The notes under the pieces: model-generated
Database searches by the model: none
What the model was told of the DNA's origin: nothing
The model's input: only the letters and a program-made list of their open reading frames with translations
Program-made: the position numbers and the translations under genes
Shown here: positions 5,269-64,000 of the stretch, one piece after another
Position numbering within the stretch: the first letter of the stretch is position 1
Layout of the letters: each line of letters begins with the position of its first letter
Assembly: GCA_030390025.1 (NCBI GenBank)
Contig: JASTWF010000324.1
Span: 62,001-126,000 of the forward strand
Source of the DNA: Squalus acanthias
Taxonomy: Eukaryota
Direction of reading: 5' to 3'
DNA length: 64,000 bases

Positions 5269-6244
5269 TGAATGGTGACTGCGCTGGATGTGTCTGTATT
5301 GTGCACAGGTACTTTGATTGTGTAATTTCTATTATTCTAATAACGACTGGCGCCCACAGTGCTCGGTGAATCCACACACACAAGAGGAGCGAGTGTCACA
5401 CCATCACAGTTGCTTGTTTTGTCGATTTACGCTCCTCTCCTCCTGAACTCGCTGGCCTACACTTTCTCCCACCCTTTCCCCATCCCTCGCTCACGTGACT
5501 GCTCCTCCTGTCTGAGTCGCGACCTTGGCTGTCACCGTGCTATTTGACCTTGGGGTTCACCACAACCGAACCAGACCTTTTTCTTGACCGGACATTCACG
5601 CACTTTGACTTCTCAGCTCGGATCACAGGGAATTGGTCAGGTCCCCAGGCCGACATTTCCCCCTCCCAATCCTAGGGGACGTTGAGGCTAATTGTGGTCT
5701 CCTTGCTGCCCCCCAGGATCATCCACCCCAGATCAATCCCGGCATCTTGCTGTTCTGTAAGGATTGCCTCCAGACTGCGCCAGCCAGCTGAGCCACTGGG
5801 AGAGCGATTGGCAACTTTCTGCCCGGCTTTGCTTTGTTTTCTAATTAATTCCCAACAGTGACCACACATCAAAAGTACTTCATTGGCTGTAAAGCGCTTT
5901 GGGACGTCCTGAGGTCGGGAAAGGTGTTGTATTGGTATACCTTTAAACAAAAACAAGGTCCTTAAAACCTACCTCTTTGACCAAGCTTTTGGTCACCTGT
6001 CCTAATTTCTCCTTATGTGACTCGGTGTCAATTTTTGTTTGATAATCGCTCCGGTGAAGCACCTTGGGATGTTTCACTACGTTAAAGACGCTATAGAAAT
6101 ACAAGTTGTTGTTGTAGCTTTAAAGGGCCAGTGTTGTGGTTTTAATGGGCTCCAGTTCAGCGCTCTCTCTGTAGGTGAGATCTGTCACCGAGGAGACCCG
6201 GATACAATAGCTTCTCCATTACATGGAGAAAACTGACAGGTGTT

Positions 6245-7526: not shown

Positions 7527-8273
7527 AGCTGGGCAGCACTCTCGCCTCTGAGTCACAAGGTTGTGGGTTCGAGTTCCACTCCAGCAACTTGAGCACAAAA
7601 TCTAGACCGACACGCCAGTGCAGTACTGAGGGAGCGCCGCACTGTCGGAGGGGCAGTACTGAGGGAGCGCCGCACTGTCGGAGGGTCAGTACTGAGGGAG
7701 CGCCGCACTGTCGGAGGGGCAGTACTGAGGGAGTGCAGCACTGTCGGGGGTGCAGTACTGAGGGAGTGCTGCACTGTCGGGGGTGCAGTACTGAGGGAGC
7801 GCCGCACTGTCGGAGGGGCAGTACTGAGGGAGTGCAGCACTGTCGGAGGGGCAGTACTGAGGGAGCGCCGCACTGTCGGAGGGGCAGTACTGAGGGAACG
7901 CTGCACTGTCGGAGGGTCAGTACTGGGGGAGAGCTGCACTGTCGGAGGTGCCGTCTTTCGGATGAGACGTTAAACCGAGGCCCTGTCTGCTTTCTCAGGT
8001 GGACGTAAAAGATCCCATGGCACTATTTCGAAGAAGAGCAGGGGAGTTATTCCCAGTGTCCTGGCCAATATTTATCCCTCAACCAACATCACTAAAACAG
8101 ATTATCTGGTCAATATCACATTGCTGTTTGTGGGAGCTTGCTGTGCGCAAAATTAGCTGCCACGTTTCTTACATTACAACAGTGACTACACTTCAAAAAG
8201 TACTTCATTGGCTGTGAAGCGCTTTGGGACGTCCTGAGGTGGTGAAAGGCGCTGGAGAAATGCGAGTCTTTCT
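7527..8273 (+). mobile_element. tRNA-derived Deu-domain SINE (SacSINE1/AmnSINE1-like) with an internal 33-bp expansion
   Basis: tRNA-like head with B box ggttcgagttc, central gatgagacgttaaaccgagg...aaagatcccatggcact, and tail aagcgctttgggacgtcc...aaaggcgct shared with the L2-like LINE. Confidence 0.85.
7617..7950 (+). repeat. 33-bp SINE-internal minisatellite, ~10 copies
   Basis: Unit cagtactgagggagcgccgcactgtcggagggg. Confidence 0.95.
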
Positions 8274-23441: not shown

Positions 23442-24350
23442 GACAGTGTTACTCTGTATCTAACCCGTGCTGTACCTGCCCTGGGAGTGTTTGATGGGAC
23501 AGTGTAGAGGGAGCTTTACTCTGTATCTAACCCGTGCTGTACCTGCCCTGGGGGTGTTCGATGGGGACAGTGTAGAGGGAGCTTTACTCTGTATCTAACC
23601 CGTGCTGCACCTGCCCTGGGAGTGTTTGATGGGACAGTGTAGAGGGAGCTTTACTCTGTATCTAACCCGTGCTGTACCTGCCCTGGGAGTGTTTGATGGG
23701 AAAGTGTAGAGGGAGCTTTACTCTGTATCTAACCCGTGCTGTACCTGCCCTGGGAGTGTTTGATGGGACAGTGTAGAGGGAGCTTTACTCTGTATCTAAC
23801 CCGTGCTGTACCTGCCCTGGGAGTGTTTGATGGGACAGTGTAGAGGGAGCTTTACTCTGTATCTAACCCGTGCTGTACCTGCCCTGGGAGTGTTTGATGG
23901 GAAAGTGTAGAGGGAGCTTTACTCTGTATCTAACCCATGCTGTCCCTGCCCTGGGAGTGTTTGATGGGACAGTGTAGAGGGAGCTTTACTCTGTATCTAA
24001 CCCGCGCTGTACCTGCCCTGGGAGTGTTTGATGGGACAGTGTAGAGGGAGCTTTACTCTGTATCTAACCCGCGCTGTCCCTGCCCTGGGAGTGTTTGATG
24101 GGACAGTGTAGAGGGAGCTTTACTCTGTATCTAACCCGTGCTGTACCTGCCCTGGGAGTGTTTGATGGGACAGTGTAGAGGGAGCTTTACTCTGTATCTA
24201 ACCCGCGCTGTCCCTGCCCTGGGAGTGTTTGATGGGACAGTGTAGAGGGAGCTTTACTCTGTATCTAACCCGCGCTGTCCCTGCCCTGGGAGTGTTTGAT
24301 GGGACAGTGTAGAGGGAGCTTTACTCTGTATCTAACCCGTGCTGTACCTG
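23442..24350. repeat. 67-bp minisatellite, ~13 copies
   Basis: Unit actctgtatctaacccgtgctgtacctgccctgggagtgtttgatgggacagtgtagagggagcttt; degenerate copies also at 38603-38855. Confidence 0.95.
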
Positions 24351-42632: not shown

Positions 42633-43790
42633 GCTTTTAGTTCCCCCCCAATCCTAACCCTGTCCATTTGCCCCTTACCCGCTCCTGATCAGCATCCGTC
42701 ATTCTCTTCCTTCGCGTAAAGTGCTTTGTAACGTCTTCCTGGATGTGAGGAATGCGATGGAAATGCAAGTTGCTGTTACCCCTTCCCTCTCCCAATCCCC
42801 AGTAACAGGGAATAACACTCTACAACAACAACTTGTATTTATACAGCGCCCTTCACACAGAAACATCCCAAGGTGCTTCACAGGAGCGTTATCGAAAAAA
42901 ATGTGACACCGAGCCACATAAGGGGACATTAGGCCAAATGAGCAAAAGCTGGGTCAGAGAGGGAGGTTTTAAAGGAGGAGAGCGAGGCGGAGAGGTTTCG
43001 GGAGGGAATTCCAGAGCTCAGGGTTGATCTAGTAAACTACTATTCTCCATCATTCAAACTGCTTACAGTTCAAACACCCTCCACATTGGGGTGGAGTTTT
43101 GTGTTAAATGTTGCTATTAGACGGGCTTGCTGTATAGGTGGTTGTTTCATCTGAGAATACCTTTACAAGTTGCTGCTATTGGCACAGTACATTATTTCCC
43201 TCAATTCTCCATTTTTCTTACCCTGGTCCCCTCGGGTCTCACAGCGAAGGCAGGAAGGCATGCGACCATCTCTCAGGCCACCGCTCATAAACACCAAAGT
43301 TATGGAGGGCGAGAGCAACCCAGGAATGAGACCCTTGATTTACCTTTTGCTTTTAGATCCCACCCCCCGCCCAAGCTAACCATCTCCATTTGCCCTTTAC
43401 AGCATCCATCATTTGAGCTCATCCAACACTTAGGGACCAAAGTGGCAATCTGTGTGTCGAGCCGGAAGATGTAGGTGAGGTTTTAAATGAATATTTTGCA
43501 TCTGTGCTCACTATGGAGAAGGACGATGTAGGCAAAGAAATCAGGCAGGGGGATTGTGATATACTTGAACAAATTAGTATTGAGAGGGAGGAGTTACTCG
43601 CGGTTTTAGCGGGCTTAAAAGTGGATAAATCCCCAGGCCCAGACGAGATGTATCTCAGGCTGCTGTGTGAGGCAAGGGAGGAGATTGCAGGGGCTCTGAC
43701 ACAAATTTTCAGAACCTCTCTGGCCACAGGGGAGGTCAAAATTGAGAGGTCGCACAACACCAGGTTATAGTCCAACAGTTTTATTTTAAA

Positions 43791-43828
43791 TCACAAGCTT
43801 TCGGAGTTACAACTTCTTCGTCGGGTGA
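43791..43828 (-). ncRNA. Inverted copy of the hammerhead motif in the left arm
   Basis: Reverse complement of 44634-44671 with one extra stem II mismatch (GAAGT instead of GGAGT). Confidence 0.6.
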
Positions 43829-44633
43829 AGTGAGGAGATACAGAATCGTCAAAGCATATATAGATACAGAACAATGCATGTGTAACTTACAATTGCAGAC
43901 AACTAAATTCAATCATCCTGACTGTTTATCTGCCGAGGTGTGATAAAGTTAATCAGGTCAGCCAGGAAGGTACCACATCAAAGACATAGCAAGATACAAC
44001 TGAGACAATGAAGTGGAGTCGCAGGGGTCTAACGTGTCAAAAGCTGCCGTCTGTATGTAAAACGATTAACTTTAAAATTTTTACTTTTTTACTGGGGATC
44101 ACATCTGTGAACAAGCCAACGACGACTCGAGTCCGGATCACGTCATGTATCGTGACATAAACCCAAGATCCCGATTGAGACCGTCTTCATGAGTGCGGAA
44201 CTTGGCTATCAGTTTCTGCTCGATGCAACGCAAAATCATCGAGCAGAAACTGATAGCCAAGTTCCGCACTCATGAAGACGGTCTCAATCGGGATCTTGGG
44301 TTTATGTCACGATACATGACGTGATCCGGACTCGAGTCGTCGTTGGCTTGTTCACAGATGTGATTCCCAGTAAAAAAGTAAAAATTTTAAAGTTAATCGT
44401 TTTACATACAGACGGCAGCTTTTGACACGTTAGACCCCTGCGACTACACCTCATTGTCTCAGTTGCATCTTGCTATGTCTTTGATGTGGTACCTTCCTGG
44501 CTGACCTGATTAACTTTATCACACCTCGGCAGATAAACAGTCAGGATGATTGAATTTAGTTGTCTGCAATTGTAAGTTACACATGCATTGTTCTGTATCT
44601 ATATATGCTTTGACGATTCTGTATCTCCTCACT

Positions 44634-44671
44634 TCACCCGACGAAGGAGTTGTAACTCCGAAAGCTTGTGA
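44634..44671 (+). ncRNA. Minimal type I hammerhead ribozyme motif with a U4-to-C core change
   Basis: TCAC-CCGACGA-A-GGAGT-TGTA-ACTCC-GAAA-GC-TT-GTGA: stem I TCAC/GTGA, stem II GGAGT/ACTCC, palindromic AAGCTT at stem III. Confidence 0.7.
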
Positions 44672-46454
44672 TTTAAAATAAAACTGTTGGACTATAACCT
44701 GGTGTTGTGCGACCTCTCAATTTTGTCCACCCCAGTCCAACACCGGCATCTCCGCATCATGACCACAGGGGAGGTGCCAGAGGACTGGAGGACAGCCAAC
44801 GTAGTACCATTATTCAAGAAGGGTAGTAGGGATAAACCAGGGAATTACAGGCCAGTGAGCCTAACATCAGTGATAGGGAAATTATTGGAAAAAATTCTGA
44901 GGGACAGAATTAGTCTCCACTTGGAGAGGCAAGGATTAATCAAGGATAGTCAGCATGGCTTTGTCAGGGGGAGATCATGTCTAACCAATTTGATTGAATT
45001 TTTTGAGGGGGTGACTAGGTGTGTGGATGAGGGTAGTGCAGTTGATGTAGGCTACATGGACTTCAGTAAGGCTTTTGACAAAGTCCCGCATGGGAGACTG
45101 GTCAAGAAGGTAAGAGCCCATGGGATCCAGGGCAATTTGGCACATTGGATCCAAAATTGGCTTAGTGGCAGGAGGCAGAGGGTGATGGTCGAAGGTTGTT
45201 TTTGTGACTGGAAGCCCGTGTCCAGTGGTGTACCGCAGGGATCGGTGCTGGGTCCTTTGCTGTTTGTAGTGTACATTAATGATTTAGATATGAATGTAGG
45301 AGGTATGATCAGTAAGTTCGCAGATGACACGAAATTTGGTGGGGTGGTAAATAGCGAGGAGGGAAGCCTCAGGCTACAGGACGATATAGACGGGTTGGTC
45401 AGAACAGTGGCAAATGGAATTTAACCCTGAAAAGTGTGAGGTGATGCATTTTGGGAGGACTAACAAGGCAAGGGAATACACAATGAATGGTAGGACCCTC
45501 GGAAGGACAGAGGATCAGAGGGACCTTGGTGTGCATGTACATAGATCCCTGAAGACAGGACAGGTAGATAAGGTGGTTAAAAAGGCATATGGGATACTTG
45601 CCTTCATTAGCCGAGGCATAGAATATAAGAGCAGGGACGTTTTGATGGAGCTGTACAAAACGCTAGTTAGGCCACAGTTGGAATACTGTGTGCAGTTCTG
45701 GTCGCCACACTATAGGAAGGATGCGATTGCATTGGAGAGGGTGCAGAGGAGATTCACCAGGATGTTACCTGGGTTGGAGCGCTTCAGCTATGAAGAGAGA
45801 CTGGACAGGCTGGGGTTGTTTTCCTTAGAGCAGAGAAGGCTGAGGGGGGACCCGATTGAGGTGTACAAAATTATGAGGGGCATAGATAGGGTAGATAGAA
45901 AGGAACTTTTCCCCTTAGTAGAGGGGTCAATAACCAGGAGCATAGTTTCAAGGTAAGGGGCAGGAGGGGATTTGAGGAAAAACATTTTCACCCAGAGGGT
46001 GGTTGGAATCTGGAACTCACTGCCTGAAAGGGTGGTAGAGGCAGGAACCCTCACAACATTCAAGAAGCATTTAGATGAGCACTTGAAACGCCATAGCATA
46101 CAAGGCTACGGACCAAGTGCTGGAAAATGGGATTAGAATAGATAGGGCTTGATAGCCGGCGCGGACACGATGGGCCAAAGGGCCTCTTTCTGTGCTGTAT
46201 AACTCCATGACTGCGCGTGTCCTAACTCGCACCAAGTCCCATTCACCCATCACCCCTGTGCTCGCTGACCTACATTGGCTCCTCGTCCAGCAACGCCTCG
46301 ATTTTAAAATTCTCATCCTCGTGTTCAAATCTCTCCATGCCCTCAACCCTCCCCATCTCTAATCTCCTCCAGCTGCACAACCCCCCCCCCACCCCCCGAG
46401 ATCTCTGCGCTCCTCTAATTCTGAACTCTTGTGCATCCCCAATTTCCGTCGCTC

Positions 46455-56560: not shown

Positions 56561-57432
56561 GCTGGCAGCTGCAACACGAAAGTATCCAGAGTGTTTTACC
56601 ATCAAGCAGAAATAAAATGTTGAAATACAAGCAAAACTGATGTTGTGCATCAGACTGTCTCCATTGAGAGAGGTAGGTTCGAATGGGAAGGGTGGCGTGA
56701 GACGACAGCCCCCCTCCTGGTTACATCTCACACCAAATCCTTTTCCCACGAGTTGGAATCAAGATTGGGATTGCTGTACCTGACTGTTCAGGCTGTACAA
56801 AGCCCTGAGCTGTACTAACATCTACCACAGGGTTCGGTCAATGAACGTTTCCACTGACTCCCTTTCCCACCCCTGGAAGTGAATGGGAAGATGTTGCGTG
56901 TTGAGATGAACAGCTTATACAAGGAGAAACACAACCAGGGAAAGGGGGTGGGAGAAAAGAGAAAATCACCAATTACTTTACAGCTCATTCTTTTTATTTT
57001 CTTGTGCACGCGATCATTTTTTGTTCTTTTCTAGACGCTGCCTGAGTGTTTTCAGCATGTTCTATTTTTATTATGGATTTAATGTATTTTTTTCTCTTCC
57101 CATCGGTTGCTGCCAATGTTCCCTTTAAGCTGCACATTGCTCCAGGGGTCCCGTGCAGCCGGCTTTAAAGGGTCCACACGGCCCCCAAAAAATTACGGGG
57201 AACATTGGTTGCCGCCCCTCTCCGCTTGACAGCCCAACCCAAGCTGTGAACTCGCTAATGTGAGAAATCACCCTGCATGCCAGTACTGCTTGGTACAGTG
57301 CACTGGCACCCAAACTCAGTGAGCCACTAGGCCCTCTGTAATGTGAAACCCCTCTCAAGGTGCTGTCATAAAAAAAGCAAAAATGAGAAGTCGCACAACA
57401 CCAGGTTATAGTCCAACAGATTTATTTAATTG

Positions 57433-57469
57433 TACAAGCTTTCGGAGCTGTCGCTCCTTCGTCAGGTAA
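57433..57469 (-). ncRNA. Inverted hammerhead motif copy (sense to the BTRC pre-mRNA)
   Basis: Reverse complement of the right-arm motif; core intact, stem I shortened to 3 bp by one substitution. Confidence 0.75.
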
Positions 57470-57478
57470 GTTGCTAAC

Positions 57479-57516
57479 TTACCTGACGAAGGAGCGACAG
57501 CTCCGAAAGCTTGTAA
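57479..57516 (+). ncRNA. Minimal type I hammerhead ribozyme motif, canonical core
   Basis: TTAC-CTGACGA-A-GGAGC-GACA-GCTCC-GAAA-GC-TT-GTAA: CUGANGA and GAAA core, 5-bp stem II, 4-bp stem I, predicted CUU cleavage triplet. Confidence 0.82.
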
Positions 57517-57624
57517 AATTAAATAAATCTGTTGGACTATAACCTGGTGTTGTGCGACTTCTCATTTTTGTCCACCCCAGTCCAACGCCGGCATCTCCAC
57601 ATCATAAAAAAAGCAGTCAAAGCA

Positions 57625-61587: not shown

Positions 61588-64000
61588 GTAGGGGAATCGC
61601 AGGTACAGACCCACGTCCCATCACGGTGGAGGGAATCGCAGGTACAGACCCACGTCCCATCGCTGTGTGGGGGAATCGCAGGTACAGACCCACGTCCCAT
61701 CACGGCGGAGGGAATCGTAGGTACAGACCCACATCCCATCACGGTGGAGGGAATCGTAGGTACAGACCCACATCCCATCGCTGTGTGGGGGAATCGCAGG
61801 TACAGACCCACGTCCCATCACGGTGGAGGGAATCGTAGGTACAGACCCACATCCCATCGCTGTGTGGGGGAATCGTAGGTACAGACCCACATCCCATCGC
61901 TGTGTGGGGGAATCGCAGGAACAGACCCACGTCCCAGCACTGTGTGGGGGAATCGCAGGTACAGACCCACGTCCCAGCACTGTGTGGGGGAATCGCAGGA
62001 ACAGACCCACGTCCCAGCACTGTGTGGGGGAATCGTAGGTACAGACCCACATCCCATCGCTGTGTGGGGGAATCGCAGGAACAGACCCACATCCCATCGC
62101 TGTGTGGGGGAATCGCAGGTACAGACCCACATCCCATCGCTGTGTGGGGGAATCGTAGGTACAGACCCACATCCCATCGCTGTGTGGGGGAATCGCAGGA
62201 ACAGACCCACGTCCCAGCACTGTGTGGGGGAATCGCAGGTACAGACCCACGTCCCAGCACTGTGTGGGGGAATCGCAGGAACAGACCCACGTCCCAGCAC
62301 TGTGTGGGGGAATCGCAGGAACAGACTCACGTCCCAGCACTGTGTGGGGGAATCGCAGGTACAGACCCACGTCCCAGCACTGTGTGGGGGAATCGCAGGA
62401 ACAGACTCACGTCCCAGCACTGTGTGGGGGAATCACAGGTACAGACCCACGTCCCATCGCTGTGGGGGAATCGCAGGTACAGACCCACGTCCCATCACTA
62501 TGTGGGGGAATCGCAGGAACAGACTCACGTCCCAGCACTGTGTGGGGGAATCGCAGGAACAGACTCACGTCCCAGCACTGTGTGGGGGAATCGCAGGTAC
62601 AGACCCACGTCCCAGCACTGTGTGGGGGAATCGCAGGAACAGACTCACGTCCCAGCACTGTGTGGGGGAATCACAGGTACAGACCCACGTCCCATCGCTG
62701 TGGGGGAATCGCAGGTACAGACCCACGTCCCATCACTATGTGGGGGAATCGCAGGAACAGACTCACGTCCCAGCACTGTGTGGGGGAATCACAGGTACAG
62801 ACCCACGTCCCATCACTATGTGGGGGAATCGCAGGTACAGACCCACGTCCCATCACTATGTGGGGGAATCGCAGGAACAGACTCACGTCCCAGCACTGTG
62901 TGGGGGAATCGCAGGTACAGACCCACGTCCCATCACTATGTGGGGGAATCGCAGGTACAGACCAACGTCCCATCACTGTGTGGGGGAATCGCAGGTACAG
63001 ACCCACGTCCCATCACTATGTGGGGGAATTGCAGGTACAGACCCACGTCCCAGCACTGTGTGGGGGAATCGCAGGTACAGACCAACCTCCCAGCACTGTG
63101 TGGGGGAATCACAGGAACAGACCCACGTCCCATCACTGTGTGGGGGAATCGCAGGAACAGACTCACGTCCCAGCACTGTGTAGGGGAATCGCAGGTACAG
63201 ACCAACCTCCCAGCACTGTGTGGGGGAATCGCAGGTACAGACCCACGTCCCATCACTATGTGGGGGAATCGCAGGAACAGACCCACGTCCCATCACTGTG
63301 TGGGGGAATCGCAGGTACAGACCCACGTCCCAGCACTGTGTAGGGGAATCGCAGGTACAGACCCACGTCCCATCACTATGTGGGGGAATCGCAGGTACAG
63401 ACCCACGTCCCATCACTATGTGGGGGAATCGCAGGAACAGACCCACGTCCCAGCACTGTGTGGGGGAATCGCAGGTACAGACCCACGTCCCAGCACTGTG
63501 TGGGGGAATCGCAGGAACAGACCCACGTCCCAGCACTGTGTGGGGGAATCGCAGGAACAGACCCACGTCCCAGCACTGTGTGGGGGAATCGCAGGTACAG
63601 ACCCACGTCCCAGCACTGTGTGGGGGAATCGCAGGTACAGACCCACGTCCCATCACTATGTGGGGGAATCGCAGGTACAGACCCACGTCCCAGCACTGTG
63701 TGGGGGAATCGCAGGAACAGACCCACGTCCCAGCACTGTGTGGGGGAATCGCAGGAACAGACCCACGTCCCAGCACTGTGTGGGGGAATCGCAGGTACAG
63801 ACCCACGTCCCATCACTATGTGGGGGAATCGCAGGTACAGACCCACGTCCCAGCACTGTGTGGGGGAATCGCAGGTACAGACCAACCTCCCAGCACTGTG
63901 TGGGGGAATCACAGGAACAGACCCACGTCCCATCACTGTGTGGGGGAATCGCAGGAACAGACTCACGTCCCAGCACTGTGTAGGGGAATCGCAGGTACAG
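61588..64000. repeat. 38/40-bp minisatellite, about 60 copies, runs off the window end
   Basis: Unit tgtgtgggggaatcgcaggtacagacccacgtcccagcac. Confidence 0.96.

What the first reader, a model, noticed from the sequence alone, without database searches (positions are those of the whole stretch)
57366..57615. 228-bp fold-back element that is little more than two back-to-back hammerhead ribozyme motifs
Seen: 95-bp inverted arms with a 3-nt loop. Each arm holds a canonical CUGACGA/GAAA hammerhead motif starting within about 10 nt of the loop, followed by a 35-nt unpaired tail, and the element has flanking direct repeats. The outer arm boundary (caaaa...ttttg) and the tail are the same as in the 1-kb element at 43737-44762; only arm length differs. 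Known: Penelope-like elements carry minimal hammerheads in their terminal repeats and often show inverted 5' structures. Inference: this family reproducibly makes fold-back insertions whose inverted arm ends at a fixed point ~35 nt short of the 3' end. The short form could be a non-coding ribozyme-hairpin mobile unit, or simply an extreme truncation product.
Basis: partly seen in the sequence, partly recalled or inferred. Interest (0 to 1): 0.8.

Follow-up and report, generated by a model that had tools for sequence, protein, structure and literature searches.

The report
Penelope retroelement leader palindrome, not mini-ribozyme
This 228-base mirror-image insert is a very short copy of an abundant Penelope-type jumping gene in a shark-like genome, laid down in a layout already described for this class, and it likely formed when both cut DNA strands copied the front end of the element's RNA up to its predicted start, so it is probably a by-product rather than a self-spreading ribozyme.

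Summary
The structure is real: 57378-57605 has 95-bp arms (94 of 95 paired), a 3-nt loop, a 35-nt one-sided tail and a 14-nt target-site duplication. It is the pLTR end of an endonuclease-bearing Penelope-like element (PLE). The related 1-kb palindrome at 43737-44762 encodes the end of an RT/GIY-YIG protein whose relatives carry the Neptune/Nematis-type linker. An inverted 5'-truncated copy, a 30-40-bp tail and opposite-strand minimal hammerheads are all published PLE features. In public read contigs, family copies end at the same two points about 35 nt apart. The two hammerheads lie on opposite strands, cover a third of the element, and are predicted not to fold in read-through RNA. The fold-back centre maps onto a TATA+initiator-predicted transcription start, 37 nt upstream of the predicted ribozyme cut. 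Best reading (inferred): both target strands prime reverse transcription at the two tail-flanking sites of the leader RNA and run off its 5' end; snap-back priming is the main rival. No abundant contig crosses this exact centre, which weakly disfavours self-propagation. The scan found this many times before on other DNA, including this genome. No genome was held, so per-copy tabulation was impossible.

The parts
57366..57379 (+). Left target-site duplication (14 nt; last 2 nt also match the start of the inverted arm)
57378..57472 (-). Inverted, tail-less copy of the PLE pLTR end (95 bp)
57432..57469 (-). Minimal type-I hammerhead motif of the left arm; outermost helix I pair broken by the single arm mismatch
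57473..57475 (.). 3-nt loop at the head-to-head junction; abundant family contigs match across it into 57467-57472, so it is probably native upstream sequence (inferred)
57476..57570 (+). Sense copy of the pLTR end; its first base maps to the predicted +1 (44631) of the long copy
57479..57516 (+). Minimal type-I hammerhead: helix I 57479-82/57513-16, core 57483-89, helix II 57491-95/57500-04, GAAA 57505-08, predicted cut after 57512
57571..57605 (+). 35-nt one-sided C/A-rich PLE tail (last 4 nt also match the TSD)
57602..57615 (+). Right target-site duplication; start of a decayed LINE fragment (CR1-type by recalled peptide likeness) that runs to about 58100
   Evidence: 80% identity to 34811-34298; table 8
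43737..44762 (.). Related 1-kb palindrome: arms 43737-44225 and 44237-44725 (489 bp, 5 mismatches), 11-nt loop, tail from 44726, TSD 43724-43736 / 44763-44775 (13 nt exact, 16 with one mismatch), inserted in a LINE RT frame
44226..44324 (+). Last 32 codons and stop of the PLE RT/GIY-YIG ORF
44600..44635 (+). TATATA box (44600-05) and initiator-like TCACTTC (44629-35); predicted +1 at 44631, 31 nt from the TATA box; untested as a promoter
44634..44671 (+). Hammerhead motif of the long copy (U4C core variant; one compensatory change each in helices I and II relative to the short copy)

Best explanation
The element is a single, protein-less insertion of the terminal-repeat end of an abundant endonuclease-bearing Penelope-like retroelement, likely made when the element's enzyme cut both target strands and each 3' end primed its own DNA copy of the RNA's short leader, both copies likely running to the RNA's predicted 5' start and then joining head to head. 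Steps. (1) Shown: identity as a PLE end, head-to-head arms, one-sided tail, TSD, two family-wide end points about 35 nt apart. (2) From the literature on another PLE: the purified protein cuts and extends both strands, starts at two internal RNA sites that flank the tail, and does not need hammerhead cleavage. (3) Inferred: a 14-nt staggered cut leaves two 3' overhangs. The bottom one pairs 4 nt with the RNA at the outer site (57605) and gives the arm plus tail; the top one pairs 2 nt at the inner site (57570) and gives the tail-less inverted arm. (4) Inferred: the RNA starts at a TATA/initiator promoter in the pLTR just before the hammerhead, so both cDNAs stop within a few bases of each other. 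(5) Inferred: the ends join through 0-3 nt of self-complementarity and host repair fills in. The hammerheads are passengers. The insert lacks the TATA box and any ORF, so it is probably dead on arrival.
For: Anatomy and TSD. The sister element's 32-residue peptide hits 8 of 8 candidate proteins at 77-97% identity, among them an RT protein (P0004, RVT_1 5e-9) and a GIY-YIG protein (P0006, 2e-5); an 881-aa RT-bearing protein ends in the same peptide. The 3 of those 8 that carry a C-x(2-5)-C-x-x-C motif are P0004, P0007 and P0008, the linker that marks Neptune/Nematis in PMC8557442. Loose ends with long, low-agreement flanks cluster at two places: at 95% likeness X1 57571 (10 contigs), 57573 (5), 57605 (13) and X5 57564 (8), 57569 (2), 57605 (8), 57607 (5), from 12 rows shown of 120; at 80% X18 57562 (270) and 57605 (275), X5 57605 (107), from 24 rows shown of 1642. 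Both ends of both TSDs resemble the RNA at the two sites: 2 nt and 4 nt exact in the short copy; 6 of 8, and 3 of 4, in the long copy. The only TATA+Inr pair in the 537-nt long sense arm has its +1 at 44631, which maps to 57476 by hammerhead-core register; 16 of 20000 shuffles had such a pair within 5 nt. At the long copy's junction, 6 of 8 relatives have R three residues after the conserved D (DTR), not the M that snap-back priming would need there. In vitro precedent: PMC11167929 (parts 1-2 of 4 read).
Against: Only two copies could be examined whole; no genome is held. Read contigs do not tell which orientation the inner boundary belongs to. The promoter test was designed after seeing the sequence and after earlier scan notes suggested it, uses a sister subfamily (87% identical), and no RNA start data exist. 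Abundant contigs match the + strand into 57467-57472, so the right arm may reach 5 or more nt upstream of the mapped +1 and a native micro-hairpin at the centre fits snap-back equally well. The long copy's arms also end within 11 nt of each other, about 400 nt upstream of the predicted start, so near-symmetric ends do not need a transcription start. The in vitro element is a Poseidon, whose RT starts lie 111-118 nt inside the ORF, and that paper saw no difference in start site between strands and does not discuss inverted products in its main text. No contig spanning this locus's own centre was laid in X1 or X5.
Confidence: 0.55

Rival explanations
1. Same PLE origin, but one cDNA only: it is primed at the tail end, stops near the 5' end of the RNA, folds back on a 2-3-bp micro-hairpin, copies itself, and the second strand is resolved at the fixed site 35 nt short of the tail by endonuclease cleavage or microhomology annealing to the target.
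For: Arms nearly identical (94 of 95; 484 of 489) and loops tiny in both copies. Abundant contigs suggest native self-complementary bases around the short loop. PMC3846280 reads junction palindromes as self-priming; PMC8557442 ascribes the tail to EN-mediated resolution (passages).
Against: At the long junction the relatives' residue implies at most about 1 nt of snap-back complementarity (protein-level, other subfamilies). In vitro both strands are extended and the tail lies between two RT starts (PMC11167929). Three of the five long-arm mismatches fall within 21 nt (P about 0.04), a weak hint of two templates.
Confidence: 0.25
2. Twin-primed or otherwise inverted insertion whose 5' truncation is random; the match of the centre to a TATA/Inr-predicted start is coincidence.
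For: PLE copies are typically 5'-truncated (PMC8557442). The long copy ends at an unrelated point inside the ORF. One short copy is one observation.
Against: The mapped distance is 0-3 nt, with 16 of 20000 shuffles as close as 5 nt (post hoc). A TATA plus TCACT initiator is also described in a rotifer PLE pLTR (PMC3846280).
Confidence: 0.1
3. One reading: the 228-bp hairpin is itself a non-autonomous mobile unit, transcribed as a fold-back RNA, processed by its hammerheads and re-inserted by PLE protein.
For: It keeps the tail and the RT start region, and the hammerhead shows two compensatory pairs between the two subfamilies (two lineages only). Non-autonomous hammerhead-bearing PLE derivatives exist (retrozymes, bioRxiv 10.64898/2026.07.22.740005). 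An unchecked scan note (e1-9073809) claims one palindrome was copied from folded-back RNA.
Against: Motifs on opposite strands; helices I and II have pairing probability 0.000 in read-through RNA on either strand versus 0.75-1.0 in the + arm with tail alone (0.11-0.53 when 95 nt of flank are added, and at most 0.11 for the left arm with loop alone). No end of the element lies at the predicted cut. No TATA box inside. Summed depth is 0 at 57461-57466 in both runs while 57467-57472 carries 58155 and 7470, so an abundant class with this exact centre was not seen; the tool warns that a hole proves nothing. Retrozymes are head-to-tail tandems. Single minimal PLE hammerheads did not cleave in vitro (PMC4209133).
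Confidence: 0.06
4. Assembly artefact, or a later DNA-level template switch that duplicated a solo PLE end in inverted form.
For: No contig across this locus's centre was laid in two runs. PMC8557442 notes that such structures trouble assemblies.
Against: A perfect 14-nt TSD encloses the whole unit, the arms differ at one base, and an independent copy of another subfamily has the same boundary and its own TSD in an otherwise continuous LINE frame.
Confidence: 0.04

Closest known systems
Inverted 5'-truncated copy plus one-sided 30-40-bp tail of endonuclease-bearing PLE insertions (PMC8557442 Fig. 2 legend and passages; Pen2a_Av of Adineta vaga, PMC3846280 passages; Drosophila virilis Penelope 34-37-bp repeat and inverted form, PMC2377424 passages)
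   Same: Head-to-head inverted pLTR, tail at one end only, short TSD around the whole unit, palindromic junction; TATA plus TCACT initiator in the pLTR (rotifer).
   Different: Here both halves are cut down to 95 bp with no ORF, and the centre sits at the predicted start; the papers explain the inversion by self-priming or leave it open.
Minimal PLE hammerheads (PMC4209133, parts 1-2 of 4 read)
   Same: Type I, no real helix III, palindromic 15.2-16.2 region, extra base between 9 and 10.1, G10.1-C11.1 pair, 4-bp helix I. The paper already reports dual minimal hammerheads about 100-700 bp apart on opposite strands in Schistosoma, tied to truncated PLEs.
   Different: The cores here are only 17 nt apart; helix II is 5 bp; sharks are not named in the parts read.
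Poseidon of Anolis carolinensis, PAc (PMC11167929, parts 1-2 of 4 read)
   Same: Tail bounded by two fixed end points in a C/A-rich stretch downstream of the hammerhead; hammerhead cleavage does not define insertion ends.
   Different: PAc is Penelope/Poseidon clade and its ORF starts inside the hammerhead; this family has the Neptune/Nematis linker and its tail appears to end at an ATG (inferred from loose-end consensus). Inverted products are not treated in the main text.
Animal non-LTR retrozymes (bioRxiv 10.64898/2026.07.22.740005, part 1 of 5 and passages read)
   Same: Short, non-coding, type-I hammerhead, PLE pLTR-derived; present in the one chondrichthyan sampled.
   Different: Retrozymes are head-to-tail tandems with hammerheads on one strand; this is head-to-head with a tail and TSD.
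L1 twin priming (recalled, not from a call)
   Same: Both target strands prime cDNA on the element RNA and the products join to give an inversion inside one TSD.
   Different: In L1 the second primer lands at a variable upstream site and the two parts do not overlap; here the two sites are fixed, 35 nt apart, so the same sequence is copied twice.

Membership tests
EN+ Penelope-like element | Parent ORF with RT and C-terminal GIY-YIG endonuclease | tested here: met
   Met through the sister copy only: its terminal peptide matches RT- and GIY-YIG-bearing proteins at 77-97%. The short copy has no ORF; it is tied to the sister by 87% identity over 130 nt. Pfam alone did not recognise the 32-aa peptide.
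EN+ Penelope-like element | Hammerhead motif in the pLTR, sense to the ORF | tested here: met
   same strand as the ORF end in the long copy
EN+ Penelope-like element | [quoted passage not shown] | tested here: met
   35 nt in both copies; two family end points in read contigs
EN+ Penelope-like element | Inverted 5'-truncated copy at the 5' end, whole unit within a variable-length TSD | tested here: met
   TSD 14 nt and 13-16 nt
EN+ Penelope-like element | Full-length tandem pLTR-ORF-pLTR source copy in the same genome | not testable with these tools
   no genome held
Neptune/Nematis-type PLE | CX2-5CxxC linker upstream of GIY-YIG, plus two cysteines inside GIY-YIG | tested here: met
   In relatives P0004, P0007, P0008 and visible in P0017; definition from PMC8557442
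Neptune/Nematis-type PLE | RT phylogeny placing it in Neptune rather than Nematis | not tested
   no reference set fetched
Penelope/Poseidon clade | Absence of the CX2-5CxxC linker | tested here: not met
Minimal type-I hammerhead | CUGANGA/GAAA core, helices I and II, extra base after 9, palindromic stub of helix III | tested here: met
Minimal type-I hammerhead | Self-cleavage as monomer, dimer or with protein | not testable with these tools
   bench assay needed
Canonical (Rfam) hammerhead | Match to an Rfam hammerhead model; stable helix III | tested here: not met
   0 hits at gathering threshold; none of 19 weak hits is a hammerhead
Non-LTR retrozyme | Two or more head-to-tail units with same-strand hammerheads | tested here: not met
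   head-to-head, opposite strands; definition
Self-propagating hairpin or MITE-like unit | Many copies with the identical centre and shared private changes | tested here: inconclusive
   No contig laid at 57461-57466 in 2 of 2 runs, but contigs drop records and only about 55% of X5 was read

The most novel reading that the evidence does not exclude
The inverted-pLTR-plus-tail layout of Penelope-like elements comes from programmed twin priming: a dimeric RT-endonuclease primes one cDNA from each target strand at the two tail-flanking RNA sites, and when it acts on the 5' leader both cDNAs run off at the capped start, so the centres of the shortest palindromes map the element's promoter and the genome fills with perfect promoter-less hairpins.
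Probability: 0.45. Interest if true: 0.55.

Novelty: new member of a known kind. Interest (0 to 1): 0.27.

Why it matters
As an object it is an ordinary, very short PLE insertion in a published layout. Its value is as a test case for an open question that PMC8557442 names: how PLEs form tandem and inverted structures. If twin priming with run-off at the start site holds, the in vitro two-start-site result extends to the inverted copy, and shark-like genomes hold a very large natural data set of junctions for testing it. Read-through of such perfect 95-bp hairpins would also be expected to give double-stranded RNA (inference, untested). The scan has already raised this reading on other DNA, so this locus adds one more example plus a promoter-register match.

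Tried and rejected
Exact-pattern scans found nothing in metagenome contigs or prokaryote genome contigs, as expected for a vertebrate repeat. The look-up of sequencing runs: no RNA holder listed; expression was not tested. Of 24 runs listed, 4 were laid (X1, X5, X11, X18). No listed piece spans either laid stretch and no contig covers 57461-57466; recorded as a hole, used only as weak evidence against an abundant identical centre. No strand-change joint was among the rows shown. Summed depth (about 2-3 million over the tail in X1, against 5-14 for several single contigs) suggests a very high copy number but is not a count. Rfam gave only generic miRNA-hairpin matches below their gathering scores: rejected as a miRNA. 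Pfam on the 32-aa peptide gave only a sub-threshold MbeB_N match: rejected. P0013 (repetitive, 52%) was taken as a chance hit. A first TSD null was inflated by minisatellites and redone with them masked. One hammerhead pattern was mis-spaced. My first label, Penelope/Poseidon, was dropped after the linker motif was found. Hammerhead cleavage as the cause of the centre was rejected: the predicted cut is 37 nt downstream and inside both arms. Literature searches for a printed twin-priming account of PLE palindromes or of shark PLE palindromes showed none among listings and the papers opened; the library lacks most subscription journals, Repbase and Dfam entries were not searchable, and supplements (e.g. 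Fig. S2 of PMC11167929; bioRxiv supplements closed) were not read and may bear on this. PMC5753468, PMC9004415, PMC8969392 and PMC6155905 were read as passages and added nothing specific.

Full report
Observation. The element runs from 57378 to 57605 (228 bp). The left arm 57378-57472 and right arm 57476-57570 pair at 94 of 95 positions around the loop GCT. A 35-nt unpaired tail follows. An exact 14-nt direct repeat lies at 57366-57379 and 57602-57615; none of 3000 random box pairs outside tandem arrays gave one that long. The repeat overlaps the arm start by 2 nt and the tail end by 4 nt, so the unambiguous duplication is 8-14 nt. The whole unit folds at -173 kcal/mol, z -29. It and the element at 43737-44762 are the only two long, tight hairpins in the window. 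The 1-kb element has 489-bp arms with 5 mismatches, an 11-nt loop, the same arm boundary and tail, and a 13-16-nt TSD. It interrupts a LINE RT frame that reads on across the insertion (RVT_1 5.5e-28 for the right flank; the label CR1 is recalled). The two elements are about 87% identical over the shared 130 nt, so they are different subfamilies.

Hammerhead. Each arm holds one motif of 38 nt, on opposite strands. On the + strand helix I is 57479-82 with 57513-16, the core CUGACGA is 57483-89, an extra A follows, helix II has 5 bp, then GAAA, a palindromic AGCU stub in place of helix III, and U at position 17, giving a predicted cut after 57512. This is the minimal PLE type of PMC4209133 (parts 1-2 of 4 read). 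That paper found single motifs inactive and same-strand dimers weakly active, and already reports dual motifs about 100-700 bp apart on opposite strands. Between the two subfamilies helices I and II each show one compensatory pair (two lineages, so weak). In read-through RNA of the whole element, on either strand, the helices have pairing probability 0.000; in the + arm with tail alone they have 0.75-1.0, falling to 0.11-0.53 with 95 nt of flank. Rfam has no hammerhead match.

Identity. The long copy's sense arm begins with 32 codons and a stop. This peptide, given with 11 upstream residues from the inverted arm, found 8 proteins among 8 candidates at 77-97% identity; the named ones are shark proteins. 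P0004 carries RVT_1 and P0006 GIY-YIG. A separate search with the 32 residues gave 17 hits, including an 881-aa RT-bearing protein ending in this peptide. Three of the first eight carry C-x4-C-x-x-C upstream of the GIY-YIG core, which PMC8557442 gives as the mark of Neptune and Nematis and absent from Penelope/Poseidon. The family is therefore an EN+ PLE of Neptune/Nematis type, and the short element is the last 130 nt of its 438-nt 3' region.

Family-wide ends. No genome is held, so I laid public contigs on one arm. Of 24 runs listed I used four. All four hold the arm and tail at very high summed depth, which falls steeply after 57607. Loose ends with long, dissimilar flanks cluster at two places. 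At 95% likeness: X1 57571 (10 contigs), 57573 (5), 57605 (13); X5 57564 (8), 57569 (2), 57605 (8), 57607 (5); 12 of 120 rows were shown. At 80%: X18 57562 (270) and 57605 (275), X5 57605 (107); 24 of 1642 rows were shown. The shift to 57562 in X18 coincides with that organism's other letters at 57563-57566. This supports two fixed end points about 35 nt apart, but does not give the orientation of the copies. After 57605 the consensus begins G-A/G-C, which suggests the tail ends at an ATG (inference). At the centre, depth is 58155 (X1) and 7470 (X5) at 57467-57472 and 0 at 57461-57466. I read this as native upstream sequence matching the loop and a few bases of the left arm, with no abundant class sharing this exact centre; the locus's own centre was not seen either, and the tool warns that a hole proves nothing.

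What is known. PMC8557442 (passages) describes an inverted 5'-truncated copy next to the 5' end and a 30-40-bp tail often at one end only. PMC3846280 (passages) shows an inverted pLTR, 31-bp tail and 9-bp TSD, calls head-to-head the commonest arrangement, proposes self-priming, and notes a TATA box and TCACT initiator in the pLTR. PMC2377424 (passages) describes the 34-37-bp repeat and inverted form in Drosophila. PMC11167929 (parts 1-2 of 4) shows that an anole PLE protein cuts and extends both target strands, starts at two internal RNA sites that bound the tail, and does not need hammerhead cleavage.

Mechanism. The geometry requires a top-strand 3' end at the right edge of the TSD and a bottom-strand 3' end at its left edge. 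Both ends of both TSDs resemble the RNA at the two end points (2 and 4 nt in the short copy; 6 of 8 and 3 of 4 in the long). The simplest reading is that each end primed a cDNA, one from the outer site (arm plus tail) and one from the inner site (tail-less arm), and that the two were joined at their 3' ends. Prompted by earlier scan notes, I asked whether the short centre is a transcription start. The long sense arm has exactly one TATA+initiator pair at 28-33 nt spacing, with +1 at 44631; by hammerhead-core register this is 57476, the first base of the short arm; 16 of 20000 shuffles had a pair within 5 nt, and 686 had one anywhere. The test is post hoc and on a sister subfamily. The predicted ribozyme cut is 37 nt downstream of the centre and cannot explain it. 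Against this reading: the long copy's arms also end together, far from the promoter; the short junction fits snap-back on a 2-3-bp micro-hairpin equally well; and only two whole copies were seen. For it: at the long junction 6 of 8 relatives have R where snap-back complementarity would need M, and 3 of 5 arm mismatches cluster in 21 nt (P about 0.04), both weak. I put twin priming with leader run-off at 0.55, snap-back at 0.25, random truncation at 0.10, a self-propagating hairpin at 0.06 and artefact at 0.04. The PLE identity itself is about 0.95.

Novelty. The layout, the tail and opposite-strand minimal hammerheads are in print. Eight searches showed no printed twin-priming account for PLE palindromes, within a library that lacks most subscription journals and repeat databases; supplements were not read. 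The scan itself holds 57 notes with these words in at least 10 genomes and several in this genome with the same reading; they are unchecked AI notes and are not counted as support. Verdict: new member of a known kind, interest 0.27.

Noticed in passing
window 43737-44762: The 1-kb palindrome interrupts a LINE RT frame that continues across the TSD; 3 of its 5 arm mismatches fall within 21 nt (44446-44466), possibly two source templates or a conversion patch; the left-arm hammerhead has a helix II break (43815).
   Followed up: partly
window 44600-44635 (+) and mirror at 43831 (-): TATATA plus TCACTTC at 31-nt spacing just upstream of the hammerhead; the 1-kb palindrome therefore carries two outward-facing predicted promoters.
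   Followed up: partly
window 57463-57471 (+) and mirror 57485-57477 (-): The antisense of helix I and the core start reads CAG|GTAAGT, a full match to the 5' splice-site consensus (consensus recalled); such palindromes offer a splice donor on both strands if intronic.
   Followed up: no
proteins P0002, P0003, P0007: Public shark gene models named FAM204A isoform X2, XRCC5 isoform X2 and a PYRIN-domain protein end in this PLE's endonuclease C-terminus: exonised PLE ends or annotation artefacts.
   Followed up: no
run X5, joint 57571 to 57618: One contig joins the tail-less arm boundary to the downstream LINE flank, as another insertion at a homologous LINE site in the opposite orientation would; single contig, 23 letters on the short side, so weak.
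   Followed up: no
window 5722-5747: Weak 26-nt match (85%, E 0.006 in the window) to the PLE tail with no arm beside it; perhaps an old remnant or chance.
   Followed up: partly
window 513-37261 and 61591-64000: Dense GC-rich minisatellites (16 rows at score 100 or more; about 13.9 kb masked). One 33-bp unit recurs at 7620, 21156 and 28326 in both orientations, and a 67-bp unit at 23449 and 38603; the region looks subtelomeric (inference).
   Followed up: no
positions 57517-57518: The short copy's letters are the majority in both runs of organism A but nearly absent in organisms C and G, suggesting a young lineage-specific subfamily.
   Followed up: no
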